From Bacillota bacterium (lineage in GTDB: Bacteria > Planctomycetota > UBA8108 > UBA1146): 64,000 nt of DNA. Positions 38,508-55,982 of the stretch are shown in pieces. The stretch lies in assembly GCA_003973385.1 (NCBI GenBank), contig QNYK01000023.1:2951-66950 (forward strand). The letters are read 5' to 3'. Both the position numbers and the translations under genes were made by a program. How positions within the stretch are numbered: position 1 is the first letter of the stretch; each line of letters starts with the position of its first letter. The notes below the pieces were generated by a model. The model ran no database searches, was not told where the DNA came from, and saw only the letters and a program-made list of their open reading frames with translations.

Positions 38508-38867
38508 ATGACCACTGTTCCGAGCCGTCAACTCGAGACCTTCGAGAACCCACAGCCTCTGAGAGACTACACGATTCGATTCGACTGTCCCGAGTTCACC
38601 TGCCTGTGCCCGCTCACCGGTCAACCCGATTTTGCCCACTTCGAACTGGAATACGTCCCTGATACTCAATGCATCGAGAGCAAATCATTGAAACTCTACC
38701 TGTGGTCCTATCGAGACGAGGGTGCCTTCCACGAAGCGGTGACCAACCAGATCCTCGACGATCTGGTCGCTGCCTGCTCGCCACGCTGGATCAAGGTGAC
38801 CGGTCACTTCTTCGTCCGCGGCGGCATCACCCCGACCATCACCGTCGAACACGGCACCCGCTGCTGA
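38508..38867 (+). CDS. queF: NADPH-dependent 7-cyano-7-deazaguanine (preQ0) reductase, type I.
   Basis: [15 protein letters not shown] (catalytic Cys) and the QueF motif region [14 protein letters not shown]; 119 aa from the Met at 38508. Confidence 0.9.
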
Positions 38868-38893
38868 TCCGATGGCCACTGGCGACTTGACTC

Positions 38894-38907
38894 CGAACAT
38901 CTGTTCG
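38894..38907. promoter_or_regulatory. Candidate LexA operator (Cheo-box type, CGAAC-N4-GTTCG) upstream of the small ORF and lexA.
   Basis: Perfect palindrome CGAACATCTGTTCG, read directly. It lies 27 nt after the queF stop, 68 nt before the small-ORF ATG and ~240 nt before lexA. A near-identical site lies upstream of dinB. Confidence 0.7.
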
Positions 38908-38974
38908 CCACCATACGGCTACCACTCCATGACGGTGAATTCGTTTCGAATGGTGACTAAAGAAGGAGGAAATT

Positions 38975-39103
38975 ATGGAAGGGTTAGCCGCAGCAGCATT
39001 TGTTTTCAGTCTAGTCGGAGTTGTGGCACTTGTTCGACTGGAAAAACTTACAAAAACCTTGAAAGAGAACGGGATTCTCAAAGAGGACTACAAAGAAGAA
39101 TAA
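38975..39103 (+). CDS. Unannotated 42-aa single-helix membrane peptide in the lexA leader. Candidate SOS-induced toxin or division inhibitor (TisB/SidA-like).
   Basis: ATG at 38975 is preceded by AGAAGGAGGA (5-nt spacer) and a TAA stop at 39101. Product is MEGLAAAAFVFSLVGVVALVRLEKLTKTLKENGILKEDYKEE. The local sequence and codons are AT-rich, unlike the flanking DNA. It is too short for the ORF track. Confidence 0.5.
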   Translation: MEGLAAAAFVFSLVGVVALVRLEKLTKTLKENGILKEDYKEE

Positions 39104-39148
39104 TGCACCGAGCAATAACACTCAGAAACCTCGGAGGTACTCCTGATC

Positions 39149-39823
39149 ATGAAATCCTCAGTCCACCAGAATCCGGGTACCGAGCGGTCCCTGACAGGGA
39201 CTCGTGCTCGGGTTCTCGATGTCATCCAGGCTGGAGTGCAGCAAGGTCGTCGCGCCACGGTTCGGGAAATCGCGGCTCAACTGGGTCTTTCTTCCCCCGC
39301 TTCGGTACACAGACACCTGCGCCGTCTCGAACGAGACGGTTTCATCCGCCGAGATCCGCTCGGTGGTTCCCGCAGTTGGATGCCAACTGCACCGGGTTCG
39401 ATTCCGATCGTTGGCCTCATCGCCGCAGGACAACCGATCGAAAGTTGTACCGATGACGGAAGTCAGCCACTCGAATGGCTCGACATTGCCCCACAAACCT
39501 TTGCCAGTTCCGGTGACATTGTGGCACTCAAGATCAAGGGTAGAAGTATGCAGGATGCGGGAATCCTGTCAGGAGACCTGGCCATCGTCCGGCGACAACC
39601 GATGGTCGAGAATGGTGAAGTCGCTGCCGTCACCGTCGATGGAAAGGGCACGCTCAAGAGCTGGCGAATCGAAACCCCTGGCACAGGCCAGCGATCTCGT
39701 CGACGGGTTCGGCTCAAGGCAGCCCATCCCGAGTTCGAGGATATCGAAGTTGATCCCGAGCATCATTCGATCGAGGTGTTCGGAAAACTGGTCGGGATCA
39801 TTCGTCACTTTGATCGACCCTGA
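39149..39823 (+). CDS. lexA: LexA repressor (S24 peptidase).
   Basis: N-terminal winged HTH (TVREIAAQLGLSSPASVHRHLRRLERDGFI), Ala-Gly cleavage region (LIAAGQPI), and catalytic Ser in KGRSMQDAGI with downstream Lys (KGTLKSW). Confidence 0.92.
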   Translation: MKSSVHQNPGTERSLTGTRARVLDVIQAGVQQGRRATVREIAAQLGLSSPASVHRHLRRLERDGFIRRDPLGGSRSWMPTAPGSIPIVGLIAAGQPIESCTDDGSQPLEWLDIAPQTFASSGDIVALKIKGRSMQDAGILSGDLAIVRRQPMVENGEVAAVTVDGKGTLKSWRIETPGTGQRSRRRVRLKAAHPEFEDIEVDPEHHSIEVFGKLVGIIRHFDRP

Positions 39824-39835
39824 CCGGGAGAACTG

Positions 39836-40099
39836 ATGGCCGAAATCCGCGAAGAAGAGATCCATGAGGCCCTCGACGAGGTGGTCGCCTGCTTTCGTGG
39901 CGGAAAGGTCGAAATCCGTTCTCTGCGCTGGCGTGGTCGTCACCATGTCGTCACGCAGATGCACGCCAGCTGGATCGATCGTTCCGTGCATCCACCGGTA
40001 CATGGCTTCACCGTCACGCTGGAAAGCGACGATCTGATGGAACTGGCGTACCAGGCGGGTGATCTGGTCTGGCGACTGGAACGTCTCTTTCTGGAGTAA
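39836..40099 (+). CDS. Hypothetical 87-aa protein translationally coupled to lexA.
   Basis: GGGAGA RBS and an ATG 13 nt after the lexA stop. No recognisable domain. The last codons lie inside the first unit of the downstream tandem repeat. Confidence 0.5.
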   Translation: MAEIREEEIHEALDEVVACFRGGKVEIRSLRWRGRHHVVTQMHASWIDRSVHPPVHGFTVTLESDDLMELAYQAGDLVWRLERLFLE

Positions 40100-40229
40100 T
40101 CACAGTGTTTCTGGAGTCATCACAGTGTTGTTTCTGGAGTCATCACAGTGTTTCTGGAGTCACCACAGTGTTTCTGGAGTCACCACAGTGTTTCTGGAGT
40201 CACCACAGTGTTTCTGGAGTCATCACAGT
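40088..40229. repeat. Seven tandem copies of the 20-bp unit GTTTCTGGAGTCA(T/C)CACAGT (first copy degenerate), noncoding.
   Basis: Read directly from the sequence. Unit boundaries are 40107, 40130, 40150, 40170, 40190 and 40210, with a 3-bp insertion at 40127-40129. It sits between the convergent 87-aa ORF and the HEAT-vWA gene. Confidence 0.9.
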
Positions 40230-40264
40230 GCCAGGCTGACCGACGCTGTGTTCGGGTTGTGCGG

Positions 40265-54668: not shown

Positions 54669-54682
54669 CGAACATATGTTCG
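54669..54682. promoter_or_regulatory. Candidate LexA operator (Cheo box) in the dinB promoter.
   Basis: Perfect palindrome CGAACATATGTTCG, 41 nt upstream of the dinB ATG and 27 nt before the AAAGGAG RBS. Confidence 0.75.
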
Positions 54683-54722: not shown

Positions 54723-55982
54723 ATGCGCCCGCTGGTCCTGCATCTGGACATCGATGCCTTCTTCGCCTCGGTCGAGCAACTGCGCAACCCTCGGCTGGCG
54801 GGGCGTCCGGTGGCGGTCGGCAGCGGGGTCATCGCATCGTGTTCCTACGAGGCGAGGGAACATGGCCTGCAGGCGGGTATGCCGCTGGGCAAGGCGCTGC
54901 GCCAGTGCCCACCGCTGGTGATCGTGCGCGGACACGAATCGATCTACCGCTGCTACGCCGCCCGTCTGTTCGAGATCTGCCACAACTGGTCTCCGGTGGT
55001 GGAAGAACATCTCGACGAGGCGTATTGCGACCTGGCCGGAACCGAACGGATCTACCCCGATCCACGACAAGAGGTGGCACGACTGCGCGATGAGATCCAT
55101 TCGAGCACCGGATTGACCGTCACGGCGGGACTCGGCCGCAATCGGATGTTCGCCCGACTCATCGGCAAACTGCACAAACCCGATGGACTCGGATACATCG
55201 AACCGGAGCAGGAGGAATCGTTGCTGTTGCAACTACCGATCGAGAGCATCCCCGGAGTCGGCCCCCGCACCGCTACGGTGCTGTCGAACCTCGGCATCGA
55301 GAAGGTGGAACAACTGCGCGAACTGTCGCGCTCGGCGCTATCTGGACTGCTGGGACGAAACGGCGAGATCCTCTACGAACGCTGCCGAGGCGAGGATCAC
55401 CGTCTCATCGGCGGCCGTGAGATCCCCCGTAGCATCCAGCGGGGAACCTCCTTTGACGAGGACATCTCCTGTCCGCGCACTCTCGACGCGATGATCGAGT
55501 ACCTCGCTGAACGCATCGCCAGCAACCTGCGCCAGAGAGGTCTGGAAGCGGGAGGATTGGCACTTCAACTGGTTCACGGCGATCACCGACGCGATCGTCG
55601 ACGCGTCGCGCTGGCCCCACCCACCGCACTCGATCCTCCCATCATCAAGACCGCTCTCGAACTGCGTCGCGCGATGGAGGGACGCCGAACTGCGATCCGC
55701 TTCGTCGGCATCCACCTCGATCGCATCCGGCTCGCTGCCACGGTCGAGCAGGGAGATCTGTTCACGGCCACAACCGAAGACCCTGCTGACACCGATCTGC
55801 AGCAGCAGCAACGCTGGAAGCGACTTCTCGGCCAGGTTGACCGCATCCGGATGCGCCATGGCCACGGCGCACTGCTGCGCGGTAGCGCCCTGGCACTGCA
55901 AGATGGTCGGGATCGGGGTGGAACGGCTCTGGAGCGCGATCGACACGGACTCATCCTCCGCACCTCGTGCCTGACCCGTTGA
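54723..55982 (+). CDS. dinB: Y-family DNA polymerase IV-like (DinB).
   Basis: LHLDIDAFFASVEQ (catalytic Asp), SCSYEAREHG, DEAYCDL. Start assigned to the Met at 54723, just after the RBS and Cheo box. Confidence 0.85.
   Translation: MRPLVLHLDIDAFFASVEQLRNPRLAGRPVAVGSGVIASCSYEAREHGLQAGMPLGKALRQCPPLVIVRGHESIYRCYAARLFEICHNWSPVVEEHLDEAYCDLAGTERIYPDPRQEVARLRDEIHSSTGLTVTAGLGRNRMFARLIGKLHKPDGLGYIEPEQEESLLLQLPIESIPGVGPRTATVLSNLGIEKVEQLRELSRSALSGLLGRNGEILYERCRGEDHRLIGGREIPRSIQRGTSFDEDISCPRTLDAMIEYLAERIASNLRQRGLEAGGLALQLVHGDHRRDRRRVALAPPTALDPPIIKTALELRRAMEGRRTAIRFVGIHLDRIRLAATVEQGDLFTATTEDPADTDLQQQQRWKRLLGQVDRIRMRHGHGALLRGSALALQDGRDRGGTALERDRHGLILRTSCLTR

What the first reader, a model, noticed from the sequence alone, without database searches (positions are those of the whole stretch)
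38975..39103. Unannotated 42-aa single-helix peptide with atypical composition. Candidate TisB-like toxin or SidA-like division inhibitor.
Product is MEGLAAAAFVFSLVGVVALVRLEKLTKTLKENGILKEDYKEE: a ~20-residue hydrophobic helix plus a Lys/Glu-rich tail. The SD (AGGAGG, 5-nt spacer) is among the strongest in the window. The gene uses AT-rich codons (TTA, AAA, GAA, ACA) that are unusual here and sits in a local low-GC patch (38940-39140). Small LexA-controlled inner-membrane peptides are known as SOS toxins (TisB) and as FtsW/FtsI-directed division inhibitors (SidA). This may be an analogue in a different lineage.
Basis: inference. Interest (0 to 1): 0.7.

Follow-up and report, generated by a model that had tools for sequence, protein, structure and literature searches.

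The report
Mobile mini-gene inserted upstream of lexA
The 42-codon gene is real, but it is not a home-grown SOS toxin: it is a 196-bp mobile gene cassette, common in marine bacteria next to the glmS gene and associated with a serine recombinase, that landed between the lexA promoter and lexA in this planctomycete lineage.

Summary
The ORF at 38975-39103 has an AGGAGG Shine-Dalgarno (SD) site, GC 0.43 and GC3 0.38, against 0.65±0.05 for window genes.

It is a true protein gene. I found more than 300 homologues, almost all 42 aa, with pN/pS 0.18 across 77 distinct alleles.

It is not a lexA-linked family. Elsewhere it is the cargo of a 195-bp cassette in same-strand arrays directly after glmS. 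Each cassette is bounded by a 20-bp site that mimics the glmS 3' end (ANTCNGTNAC|NGTNGARTRR).

A family of large serine recombinases (LSRs) sits beside this site in 11 of 11 loci examined. One element is seen both integrated and as a circular permutation, which places the crossover at the central AC.

In the window, comparison with relatives that lack the gene shows a 196-bp insertion (38934-39129) with the same half-site exchange. It lies between a conserved LexA box/promoter and the lexA ribosome-binding site.

The peptide is therefore probably co-transcribed with lexA and SOS-inducible, but only by accident of insertion. A TisB- or SidA-like role is unsupported. I infer it is a single-pass membrane peptide with a conserved cytoplasmic tail, and its function is unknown. 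The glmS-linked, LSR-associated cassette arrays appear to be undescribed.

The parts
38888..38893 (+). -35-like hexamer TTGACT of the lexA promoter
   Evidence: It is invariant together with the adjacent box in the window, L001, L002, L004 and L003. No canonical -10 was recognised.
38894..38907 (.). Putative LexA (SOS) box CGAACATCTGTTCG
   Evidence: It is a perfect palindrome, conserved upstream of lexA in relatives both with and without the insert. The only other perfect CGAAC-N4-GTTCG in the window (54669-54682) precedes a Y-family polymerase gene.
38924..38943 (+). attL-like hybrid site ACTCCATGAC|GGTGAATTCG (host left half plus cassette right half)
   Evidence: The left half matches the empty site of L004 (ACTCCCTGAC). 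The right half matches the cassette consensus NGTGGAGTAG, and is better preserved in L141 (AGTGAAGTAG) and L060 (GGTGAAATAG). The site profile hits the equivalent region in L001, L002 and L060.
38934..39129 (+). Inserted 196-bp cassette (canonical length 195 bp)
   Evidence: It is absent from L004 and L003, which keep the queF-SOS box-lexA arrangement. Its boundaries fall where cassette boundaries fall in glmS arrays, at about ATG-40 and stop+26. GC is 0.42 against 0.59 for the flanks.
38944..38957 (+). Degraded left arm TTTCGAATGGTGAC
   Evidence: It corresponds to the left arm TTTCGAACAGTGC / GAATGGTGCA of marine cassettes and to the P' arm TAGATTTCGTGAG of LSR elements.
38964..38969 (+). 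Shine-Dalgarno AGGAGG, 5 nt before the ATG
   Evidence: Read directly from the sequence. An AAGGAG-type SD at the same distance is present in nearly all cassettes.
38975..39103 (+). 42-codon gene for a single-pass membrane peptide with a conserved Lys/Glu tail
   Evidence: Within the planctomycete clade, pN is 0.062 and pS 0.236 for the window against L141.
39104..39119 (+). Degraded right arm TGCACCGAGCAATAAC
   Evidence: It corresponds to TGCACTGTTCCAAA / TGCACCAAACAAA of marine cassettes. Its GGTGCA/TGCACC is complementary to the left arm.
39120..39139 (+). attR-like hybrid site ACTCAGAAAC|CTCGGAGGTA (cassette left half plus host right half)
   Evidence: The left half matches the cassette consensus ACTCAGTNAC. 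The right half matches the L004 empty site TTCGGAGGTG.
39133..39137 (+). lexA ribosome-binding site GGAGG (host sequence)
   Evidence: It is conserved in L004 and L003 directly after the short native leader.
39149..39823 (+). lexA, now the second cistron behind the inserted gene
   Evidence: Pfam LexA_DNA_bind 1.3e-13 and Peptidase_S24 1.8e-18. No terminator-like site was found between the small ORF and lexA.

Best explanation
The ORF is a genuine, horizontally acquired gene carried on a non-autonomous mini-cassette of about 195 bp.

The cassette family. It occurs in many marine bacteria as promoterless units, each with its own SD, stacked in one orientation directly after glmS. Each unit is bounded by a 20-bp site, ANTCNGTNAC|NGTNGARTRR, which copies the last codons of glmS (K-S-V-T-V-E-stop). 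Each unit also carries 20-24-nt inverted arms, so an excised circle would hold a palindromic site of about 50 bp with a non-palindromic central AC.

The recombinase. A family of large serine recombinases (LSRs, about 545 aa), encoded on 8-11-kb integrative elements, uses this same site. Integration and circularisation of such an element exchange half-sites exactly at the AC. I infer that these LSRs move the mini-cassettes in trans.

The event in this window. In an ancestor of this planctomycete clade, one cassette recombined with a look-alike pseudo-attB (ACTCCaTGAC|cTCGGAGGTa). That site happened to lie between the LexA-box promoter and the ribosome-binding site of lexA. The 42-aa gene is therefore now the first cistron of the lexA transcript and should be de-repressed with lexA during the SOS response. 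This last step is inferred from position, not shown.

The product. It is a bitopic inner-membrane peptide. Residues 3-20 form the transmembrane (TM) segment, and the helix continues to about residue 31. The basic/acidic tail KLTKTLKEnGILxxDYKEE is predicted to be cytoplasmic. The tail is more conserved than the TM segment. My best guess (about 45%) is therefore that it binds and modulates a widely conserved membrane-proximal partner rather than acting as a pore-forming toxin.
For: Real gene:
- 310 homologues, nearly all 42 aa.
- pN/pS 0.18 and variation concentrated at third codon positions.
- 212 cluster representatives by HMM search.

Insertion:
- Present between queF and lexA in the window, L001, L002, L060, L061 and L141/L142. 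Absent in L004 (lexA 83% nt identity) and L003. All of them keep TTGACT-CCGAACATCTGTTCGCC.
- GC3 is 0.38 against 0.65.
- Half-site exchange at both junctions relative to the L004 empty site.

Cassette arrays:
- 161 sites, all on the gene's strand, 0 on the other strand, and about 6 in shuffles. These define 98 cassettes. The 42-aa unit is always about 195 bp.
- Arrays start at the true glmS stop codon.
- L054 and L056 differ by one 677-bp cassette bounded within the sites.
- Linkage of the variable site positions switches at the AC.
- The two arms of one cassette are complementary and co-vary: score 8.8 for own arms, 4.7 for swapped arms and 3.6 across a junction, p=2.5e-14.

Recombinase:
- The LSR has Resolvase, Recombinase and Zn_ribbon_recom domains.
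- A site lies 15-40 nt after the LSR stop codon in every LSR locus examined.
- L156 reads glmS-attL-[10.6-kb LSR element]-attR-[42-aa cassette].
- L153 is the integrated form and L155 is its circular permutation (99.9% identity). L155 carries attP, which equals the attR left half plus the attL right half.

LexA box.

Peptide structure.
Against: - No LSR, glmS or further att site lies in the 64-kb window, so mobilisation in this genome is inferred from junction anatomy only.
- No excised 42-aa cassette circle was observed.
- Classical serine integrases recombine attP only with attB. It is therefore unclear how attP-type cassettes stack into arrays; L156 shows insertion into a glmS/cassette junction.
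- The pseudo-attB matches only 10 of 15 constrained positions, and 114 such AC-centred 20-mers exist in the window.
- Compensatory changes in the 7-nt spacer of the arms are not required by a dimer-binding model.
- Transcription from the LexA-box promoter and translation of the ORF are not shown. The promoter's -10 element is non-canonical.
- The peptide's function is a guess.
Confidence: 0.75

Rival explanations
1. One reading: the peptide is a dedicated LexA-controlled effector of the SOS response in this lineage. It would be either a TisB-like membrane-depolarising toxin or a SidA-like inhibitor of the division machinery.
For: It lies between a credible SOS box and lexA with no terminator in between. 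It is a small hydrophobic helix. The ORF has stayed intact in the clade since insertion, with pN 0.062 against pS 0.236, so it may have been co-opted.
Against: No sequence relationship to any known family. The family's normal home is directly after the housekeeping gene glmS, with a strong SD and sometimes two copies per array. That is hard to reconcile with a potent toxin. No antisense or antitoxin RNA signal was found: the best Rfam hit has E=1.6. The leader is not structured, z=-0.81. The relatives L004 and L003 run the same lexA promoter without the gene.
Confidence: 0.08
2. The unit is mobile but is not moved by the serine recombinases. Alternatives are a MITE-like transposon with terminal inverted repeats, an integron-type or Xer-type tyrosine-recombinase cassette, or spread by homologous or illegitimate recombination of a glmS-end fragment.
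For: The unit has 20-24-nt terminal inverted repeats. The arrays look like integron arrays. No recombinase gene lies inside or beside most arrays. The L054/L056 junctions do not fit a simple exchange at the AC.
Against: There is no target-site duplication: the 10 bp flanking the window insert are CATGACGGTG on the left and AGAAACCTCG on the right. There is no attC architecture or G|TTRRRY boundary and no IntI (by inspection). All 161 sites share one orientation. The identical 20-bp site sits next to the LSR gene in 11 of 11 loci, and the LSR element's attL, attR and attP show the same AC crossover.
Confidence: 0.1
3. The reading frame is incidental. The conserved element would be an RNA: a lexA leader, a regulatory upstream ORF or an sRNA.
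For: It lies in the 5' UTR of lexA. The cassette ends are complementary and could form an RNA stem.
Against: The substitution pattern is that of a protein: entropy 0.13 at codon position 2 against 1.01 at position 3, and pN/pS 0.18. The frame and the 42-codon length are kept in unrelated contexts. There is no Rfam match. The fold is no better than shuffles. The lexA leader works without it in L004 and L003.
Confidence: 0.03

Closest known systems
Integron gene cassettes and cassette arrays
   Same: Both consist of short, promoterless units that mostly carry a single ORF of unknown function. The units are stacked in one orientation at a fixed chromosomal site, each bounded by an imperfect-palindrome recombination site whose sequence varies while its symmetry is kept. 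New units appear to enter at the proximal end (L156). Cargo is dominated by small proteins of unknown function.
   Different: There is no IntI tyrosine recombinase, no attI and no attC R''-L''/L'-R' layout, and the boundary is not at G|TTRRRY. Here the crossover lies at the centre of the palindrome (the AC), so each integrated cassette carries half a site at each end. The primary site is the 3' end of glmS. The associated enzyme is a large serine recombinase.
Staphylococcal cassette chromosome (SCC) elements moved by CcrAB/CcrC large serine recombinases at the 3' end of rlmH (orfX)
   Same: A serine recombinase integrates the element into the 3' end of a conserved housekeeping gene and preserves that gene's ORF. 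Direct repeats of the gene end bound each element. Tandem composite arrays occur, including recombinase-less units. The SCC side of this comparison comes from my own knowledge of the SCC literature, not from a test run here.
   Different: The target gene differs (glmS rather than rlmH), as do the hosts (marine Gammaproteobacteria, Planctomycetota and others). The units are miniaturised to 195 bp with one 42-codon gene. The relationship of these LSRs to Ccr was not tested.
Additive flexible genomic islands and tycheposon satellites bounded by repeats of a tRNA 3' end
   Same: [quoted passage not shown]
   Different: Those islands use tRNA genes and tyrosine recombinases, and their units are hundreds of bp to tens of kb. 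Here the repeated end is glmS, the enzyme is a serine recombinase, and the units carry inverted arms.
TisB/IstR-1, DinQ/AgrB (E. coli) and SidA/DidA (Caulobacter): SOS-induced small inner-membrane peptides
   Same: The product is a small hydrophobic helix encoded downstream of a LexA box. It would be made during the SOS response if the inferred operon structure is right.
   Different: There is no homology and no antitoxin RNA or occluded leader. The peptide is longer (42 aa) and has a conserved charged cytoplasmic tail. The family is linked to glmS cassette arrays across phyla, and the LexA linkage is a lineage-specific insertion.

Membership tests
TisB-type SOS type I toxin | Sequence membership in the TisB family, or any curated small-toxin family | tested here: not met
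   Pfam, NCBIfam, PADLOC, PHROGs and a PDB profile search gave nothing significant. The best Pfam hit had E=0.04, below the gathering score.
TisB-type SOS type I toxin | LexA box controlling the toxin gene | tested here: met
   CGAACATCTGTTCG lies 67 nt upstream of the ATG, is conserved in relatives, and a second copy precedes a Y-family polymerase gene. Actual regulation was not shown.
TisB-type SOS type I toxin | Antisense or divergent sRNA antitoxin and a structured 5' UTR that blocks ribosome loading | tested here: not met
   No Rfam family matched (best hit E=1.6). The only promoter-like hit starts inside the ORF's 3' end. The SD is full-consensus and exposed. The leader folds no better than shuffles, z=-0.81.
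TisB-type SOS type I toxin | Toxicity or membrane depolarisation on expression | not testable with these tools
   Indirect evidence argues against it. Homologues follow glmS with a strong SD, and two copies per array occur.
SidA/DidA-type SOS division inhibitor | Homology to SidA/DidA, or conserved linkage to the SOS regulon across relatives | tested here: not met
   No family match. The gene is absent from the lexA locus of L004 and L003 and sits elsewhere in other phyla.
SidA/DidA-type SOS division inhibitor | Binding to FtsW/FtsI/FtsN and a block of constriction | not testable with these tools
   This needs two-hybrid or pull-down assays and microscopy.
Integron gene cassette | attC site (R''-L''...L'-R') with the cassette boundary at G|TTRRRY | tested here: not met
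   Boundaries lie at the central AC of ANTCNGTNAC|NGTNGARTRR, and the arms have the opposite polarity (CACTGTT...AACAGTG).
Integron gene cassette | IntI tyrosine recombinase with attI/Pc next to the array | tested here: not met
   Arrays begin at glmS. No Phage_integrase gene lies next to the arrays.
Integron gene cassette | Promoterless cassettes in one orientation in tandem | tested here: met
   161 of 161 sites are on one strand, defining 98 cassettes, with cargo ORFs almost all on the same strand.
Large-serine-recombinase integrative element (SCC-like or phage-integrase-like) | Recombinase with Resolvase, Recombinase and zinc-ribbon domains | tested here: met
   L059/L156 ORF: 4e-22, 3e-12 and 3e-11, with 699 homologues. 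This is met in related loci only. None is in the window, and the 42-aa cassette itself encodes none.
Large-serine-recombinase integrative element (SCC-like or phage-integrase-like) | att sites that are imperfect inverted repeats around a non-palindromic central dinucleotide where crossover occurs | tested here: met
   L153 attL/attR against L155 attP. L156/L157 attL/attR at glmS. The linkage switch at the AC. The window junctions against the L004 empty site.
Large-serine-recombinase integrative element (SCC-like or phage-integrase-like) | Catalysis of cassette excision and integration by the LSR | not testable with these tools
   There is association only: a site follows the LSR gene in 11 of 11 loci, and an LSR element abuts a 42-aa cassette in L156.

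The most novel reading that the evidence does not exclude
A serine-recombinase counterpart of the integron may exist. Diverse marine bacteria, carrying GlmS proteins as little as 41-63% identical to one another, keep arrays of promoterless mini-cassettes at the 3' end of glmS. Each cassette carries a split palindromic att site that mimics the glmS stop region. The cassettes would be exchanged in trans by a large family of glmS-targeting large serine recombinases. The 42-aa membrane peptide is a recurrent cargo: 369 or more metagenome stretches encode it, and it is often the first cassette. In one planctomycete clade a cassette escaped to a pseudo-site and wired a new membrane peptide into the lexA operon, creating a lineage-specific SOS-inducible small protein.
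Probability: 0.5. Interest if true: 0.9.

Novelty: new variant of a known kind. Interest (0 to 1): 0.8.

Why it matters
- It turns an anonymous 42-codon ORF into a dated, mechanistically explained horizontal transfer into the regulatory region of the master SOS repressor.
- It exposes what appears to be an undescribed cassette-capture system in ocean bacteria. The system resembles an integron in logic but is associated with a serine recombinase and anchored on glmS.
- The units are the smallest gene-carrying site-specific elements I am aware of, at 195 bp.
- If the LSRs really act on these sites, they offer a naturally programmable landing pad, because the glmS 3' end is nearly universal in bacteria.
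- The system also gives a way to study how small membrane proteins spread between phyla.
- The peptide is under strong purifying selection in many lineages and has no known function.

Tried and rejected
- Chance ORF: rejected by conservation and pN/pS.
- Known families: Pfam, NCBIfam, PADLOC, PHROGs and a PDB profile search gave nothing.
- Non-coding RNA or leader: no Rfam match and no fold better than shuffles.
- Conserved linkage to lexA: rejected. LexA-based loci from other phyla lack the gene, and peptide-based loci lack lexA.
- Transposon with target-site duplication: rejected for the window because the flanking 10-mers differ.
- Integron attC: the layout and boundary do not fit.
- Recombinase inside the arrays: the long cargo ORFs show no recombinase-like sequence by eye, and no integrase appears in the precomputed Pfam lists.
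- X-drop breakpoint histogram for cassette ends: uninformative, because the site itself is conserved in every context. It was replaced by the linkage test.
- L054/L056 indel: it confirms gain or loss of a cassette within the sites but does not fit a single clean AC exchange.
- tblastn of the peptide against GenBank phages and PLSDB plasmids: no match.
- A scan of viral contigs for the main arm-plus-site pattern gave one chance hit in a tailed-phage-like contig.
- Literature searches for glmS-linked cassette arrays or glmS-targeting serine recombinases found nothing relevant, apart from the tRNA-repeat analogue.

Full report
**1. The observation.**
The window holds an ATG-started, 42-codon ORF at 38975-39103 (+) with the stated product. 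AGGAGG lies 5 nt upstream. That full-consensus Shine-Dalgarno (SD) site followed by a start codon occurs 17 times in the 64 kb.

The local GC dip is real: 0.42 against about 0.59. The ORF's GC3 is 0.38. Forty-five long ORFs of the window average 0.65±0.05, with a minimum of 0.51.

The neighbours are truD (-), queF (38508-38867), lexA (39149-39823) and a conserved 87-aa ORF. The closest genomes are Planctomycetota MAGs, NAT2 and UBA1146.

**2. It is a real protein-coding gene.**
- A peptide search returned 310 proteins, almost all exactly 42 aa and 74-98% identical, mostly from marine metagenomes.
- Seventy-seven distinct nucleotide versions give mean pS 0.595 against pN 0.105. Entropy at codon positions 1/2/3 is 0.40/0.13/1.01.
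- A profile search of 1.84 billion representatives finds a compact family: 212 representatives at E≤1e-3, with natural variants of 37-46 aa. The tail (R/Q)xEKLxKTLKEKG(I/V)LxxDYKEE is more conserved than the hydrophobic segment.
- AlphaFold2 predicts one helix over residues 2-31 with an unstructured acidic end. Residues 3-20 are strongly hydrophobic.
- No curated family, defence-system model, phage family or solved structure matches.

**3. The family is not a lexA-associated family.**
In loci recovered through the peptide, the gene sits exactly 30 nt after the glmS stop codon (atp operon-glmU-glmS or glmM-glmS). In other loci it lies a few hundred bp further down the same strand, or after an XRE-type gene.

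Within Planctomycetota it lies between queF and lexA in the window, L001, L002, L060, L061 and L141/L142. It is missing from L004 (lexA 83% nt identity) and L003. Those two keep queF, the motif cTTGACTCCGAACATCTGTTCGCCA, a short leader and lexA.

**4. Anatomy of the unit.**
Flanks of about 100 copies show a repeated layout, in this order:
- [A(A/G)TCnGTnACnGTnGA(G/A)TA(G/A)]
- [left arm, e.g. TTTnAACAGTGAATTA]
- SD
- ATG, 42 codons, TAA
- [right arm TAATTCACTGTTnAAA..ACTC]
- [nGTnACnGTnGAGTAG]
- the next unit

The 20-bp site is the glmS end (K S V T V E stop), and its variable positions are the wobble positions of those codons.

- With a tolerant pattern there are 161 sites, all on the gene's strand and none on the other, against about 6 in shuffled sequence. 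They define 98 cassettes.
- The 42-aa unit is always about 195 bp.
- Other cargo consists mostly of small membrane proteins, plus SMR-like, DUF805-like, methyltransferase and acetyltransferase genes, nearly all in the same orientation.
- Two nearly identical contigs differ by one 677-bp unit bounded within the sites.
- The two arms of the same cassette are complementary over 20-24 nt and co-vary, for every kind of cargo. Own arms score 8.8, swapped arms 4.7, and arms across a junction 3.6 (p=2.5e-14).
- The variable site positions left of the invariant AC follow the upstream neighbour. Those to the right follow the downstream cassette. The unit boundary is therefore at the central AC.

**5. 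The window copy is an insertion of such a unit.**
Against the L004 empty site (ACTCCCTGAC|TTCGGAGGTG) the window has two hybrid sites:
- ACTCCATGAC|GGTGAATTCG at 38924-38943. Its right half resembles the cassette, and is better preserved as AGTGAAGTAG in L141 and GGTGAAATAG in L060.
- ACTCAGAAAC|CTCGGAGGTA at 39120-39139. Its left half resembles the cassette.

This is reciprocal half-site exchange without a target duplication. The insert is 38934-39129 (196 bp). The site profile recognises the left junction in L001, L002 and L060.

Seven independent assemblies carry the insert with planctomycete genes on both sides, so it is not a chimera. Since insertion the ORF has changed mostly synonymously: pS 0.236 against pN 0.062 for the window against L141. 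The arms have decayed.

**6. The recombinase.**
One IMG/VR contig carries a 554-aa large serine recombinase (LSR) with Resolvase, Recombinase and Zn-ribbon domains. It ends 33 nt before a site that is followed by a 42-aa cassette.

The whole contig reads: glmS 3' end, attL (AGTCAGTGAC|AGTGGAATAA), a 10.6-kb element, attR (ATTCCATCAC|TGTCGAGTAA), then the 42-aa cassette.

The LSR family is large, with 699 homologues at E≤1e-20, including Pseudidiomarina taiwanensis. Every locus examined, down to 50% identity, has a site 15-40 nt after the LSR stop codon on the same strand.

The decisive pair is L153 and L155:
- L153 has host GC 0.52-0.53, and its neighbouring genes are typical of Planctomycetota. 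It carries a 7.9-kb element of GC 0.38.
- The element lies between attL ...PRNLAHSVTVE* ATTCAGTAAC|AGTGGAATAG and attR ATTCCATCAC|CGTCGAGTAA.
- The 8-kb contig L155 is its circular permutation at 99.9% identity. Its attP is ATTCCATCAC|AGTGGAATAG, which is the attR left half plus the attL right half.

This matches the geometry inferred independently for the arrays and for the window. The attP arms form an imperfect palindrome (TATCTAACGAAATTCATTCCA / TATCTCACGAAATCTATTCCA). The left arm of the window's cassette subfamily (TAGTTTCGAATGG) resembles the P' arm (TAGATTTCGTGAG).

That the LSRs move the mini-cassettes in trans is an inference from shared sites and adjacency. It has not been shown.

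**7. Consequence for lexA.**
CGAACATCTGTTCG at 38894-38907 is a credible LexA box. It is conserved upstream of lexA in all relatives. The only other perfect copy in the window lies 40 nt before a Y-family polymerase gene.

The insert sits downstream of this box and of the conserved TTGACT, and upstream of the native lexA GGAGG. No terminator-like site intervenes, and the leader RNA has no unusual structure. The peptide gene is thus most likely the first cistron of the LexA-repressed lexA transcript. This is positional inference.

The pseudo-site scores 10 of 15 against the att consensus, like 114 other AC-centred 20-mers in the window. The location therefore looks fortuitous.

**8. What the peptide does.**
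Its function is unknown. Three points argue against a TisB-like toxin:
- It has a constitutive operon position after glmS with a strong SD.
- Two copies occur in some arrays (L138, L087/88, L143).
- There is no antitoxin or occluded leader.

The conserved charged tail suggests binding to a conserved partner at the inner face of the membrane. My estimates are about 45% for an accessory or modulator peptide, about 15% for a toxin or pore former, about 10% for a role in element biology, and the rest unknown.

**9. Comparison with known systems, and novelty.**
- In logic the arrays resemble integrons. However, they fail the defining attC and IntI features.
- In enzymology and target choice they resemble SCC elements (Ccr serine recombinases at the rlmH 3' end).
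- They also resemble additive islands bounded by repeats of a tRNA 3' end (PMC10872708).

Searches of the paper library found no description of glmS-linked cassette arrays or of glmS-targeting serine recombinases. The library is incomplete, so prior description cannot be excluded.

**10. Open points.**
- How do attP-type units insert once attB has been used?
- Why do the arms keep base-pair complementarity even in their variable spacer?
- Are the 20-bp tandem repeats near the LSR site in P. taiwanensis, and downstream of lexA in the window, related to the system?

Noticed in passing
window 40088-40230: A 20-bp tandem repeat in 7 copies (TTTCTGGAGTCATCACAGTG). It starts as a copy of the last codons plus the stop codon of the 87-aa ORF after lexA. 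L061 has 8 copies. L001, L002, L004 and L141 have none. Its core CATCAC|AGTG equals the core of the LSR attP in L155, which may be coincidence.
   Followed up: partly
L150 10738-10815 (Pseudidiomarina taiwanensis, GCA_003987435.1): Four head-to-tail 20-mers (AAGTCGGTGACTTAGGAATA) closely resemble the glmS-end att site. They lie about 50 nt after the LSR-proximal site and just before Tn7-like tnsA/tnsB genes. A type I restriction-modification system lies upstream of the LSR as apparent cargo.
   Followed up: partly
window 54669-54682 and 54723-55982: A second perfect SOS-box-like palindrome, CGAACATATGTTCG, lies 40 nt upstream of a Y-family (IMS/DinB-like) DNA polymerase gene. It supports CGAACAT-N-TGTTCG as this organism's LexA motif.
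   Followed up: yes
window 39836-40099: An 87-aa ORF starts 13 nt after lexA. It is conserved in L004 (88 aa) and L142 (86 aa), with only a weak DUF6504 similarity (E=0.12). It is probably the third cistron of the lexA operon.
   Followed up: partly
L141/L142, host side of attL: A 15-bp tandem duplication, GCTACCACTCATGAC x2, lies immediately left of the cassette junction in the more distant planctomycete copies.
   Followed up: no
L143 559-2700; L138 2675-5080; L087/L088: Some arrays carry two paralogous copies of the 42-aa gene. The L143 array also holds a Lactamase_B/Apyc1-like (anti-Pycsar-type) gene as a cassette. L095 and L140 contain a 90-bp 'empty' unit between two sites.
   Followed up: partly
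L082, L069, L079, L126, L066, L071 (flanks of the 42-aa gene): A second site subfamily, GTnACTATTGAGTGGGAATAGAGTAGAGAATTAAAAGGAG, flanks other copies of the gene. It recurs in the same locus (L082 at 3950 and 5117), which suggests a parallel cassette system with a different core.
   Followed up: no
L045-L049 and about 12 metagenome loci (GC about 0.33): In one low-GC gammaproteobacterial lineage the gene is fixed after a 70-aa XRE-type HTH gene. The end of that gene (TGTAC|GGTAGAAGAC) looks like another hybrid pseudo-site junction.
   Followed up: no
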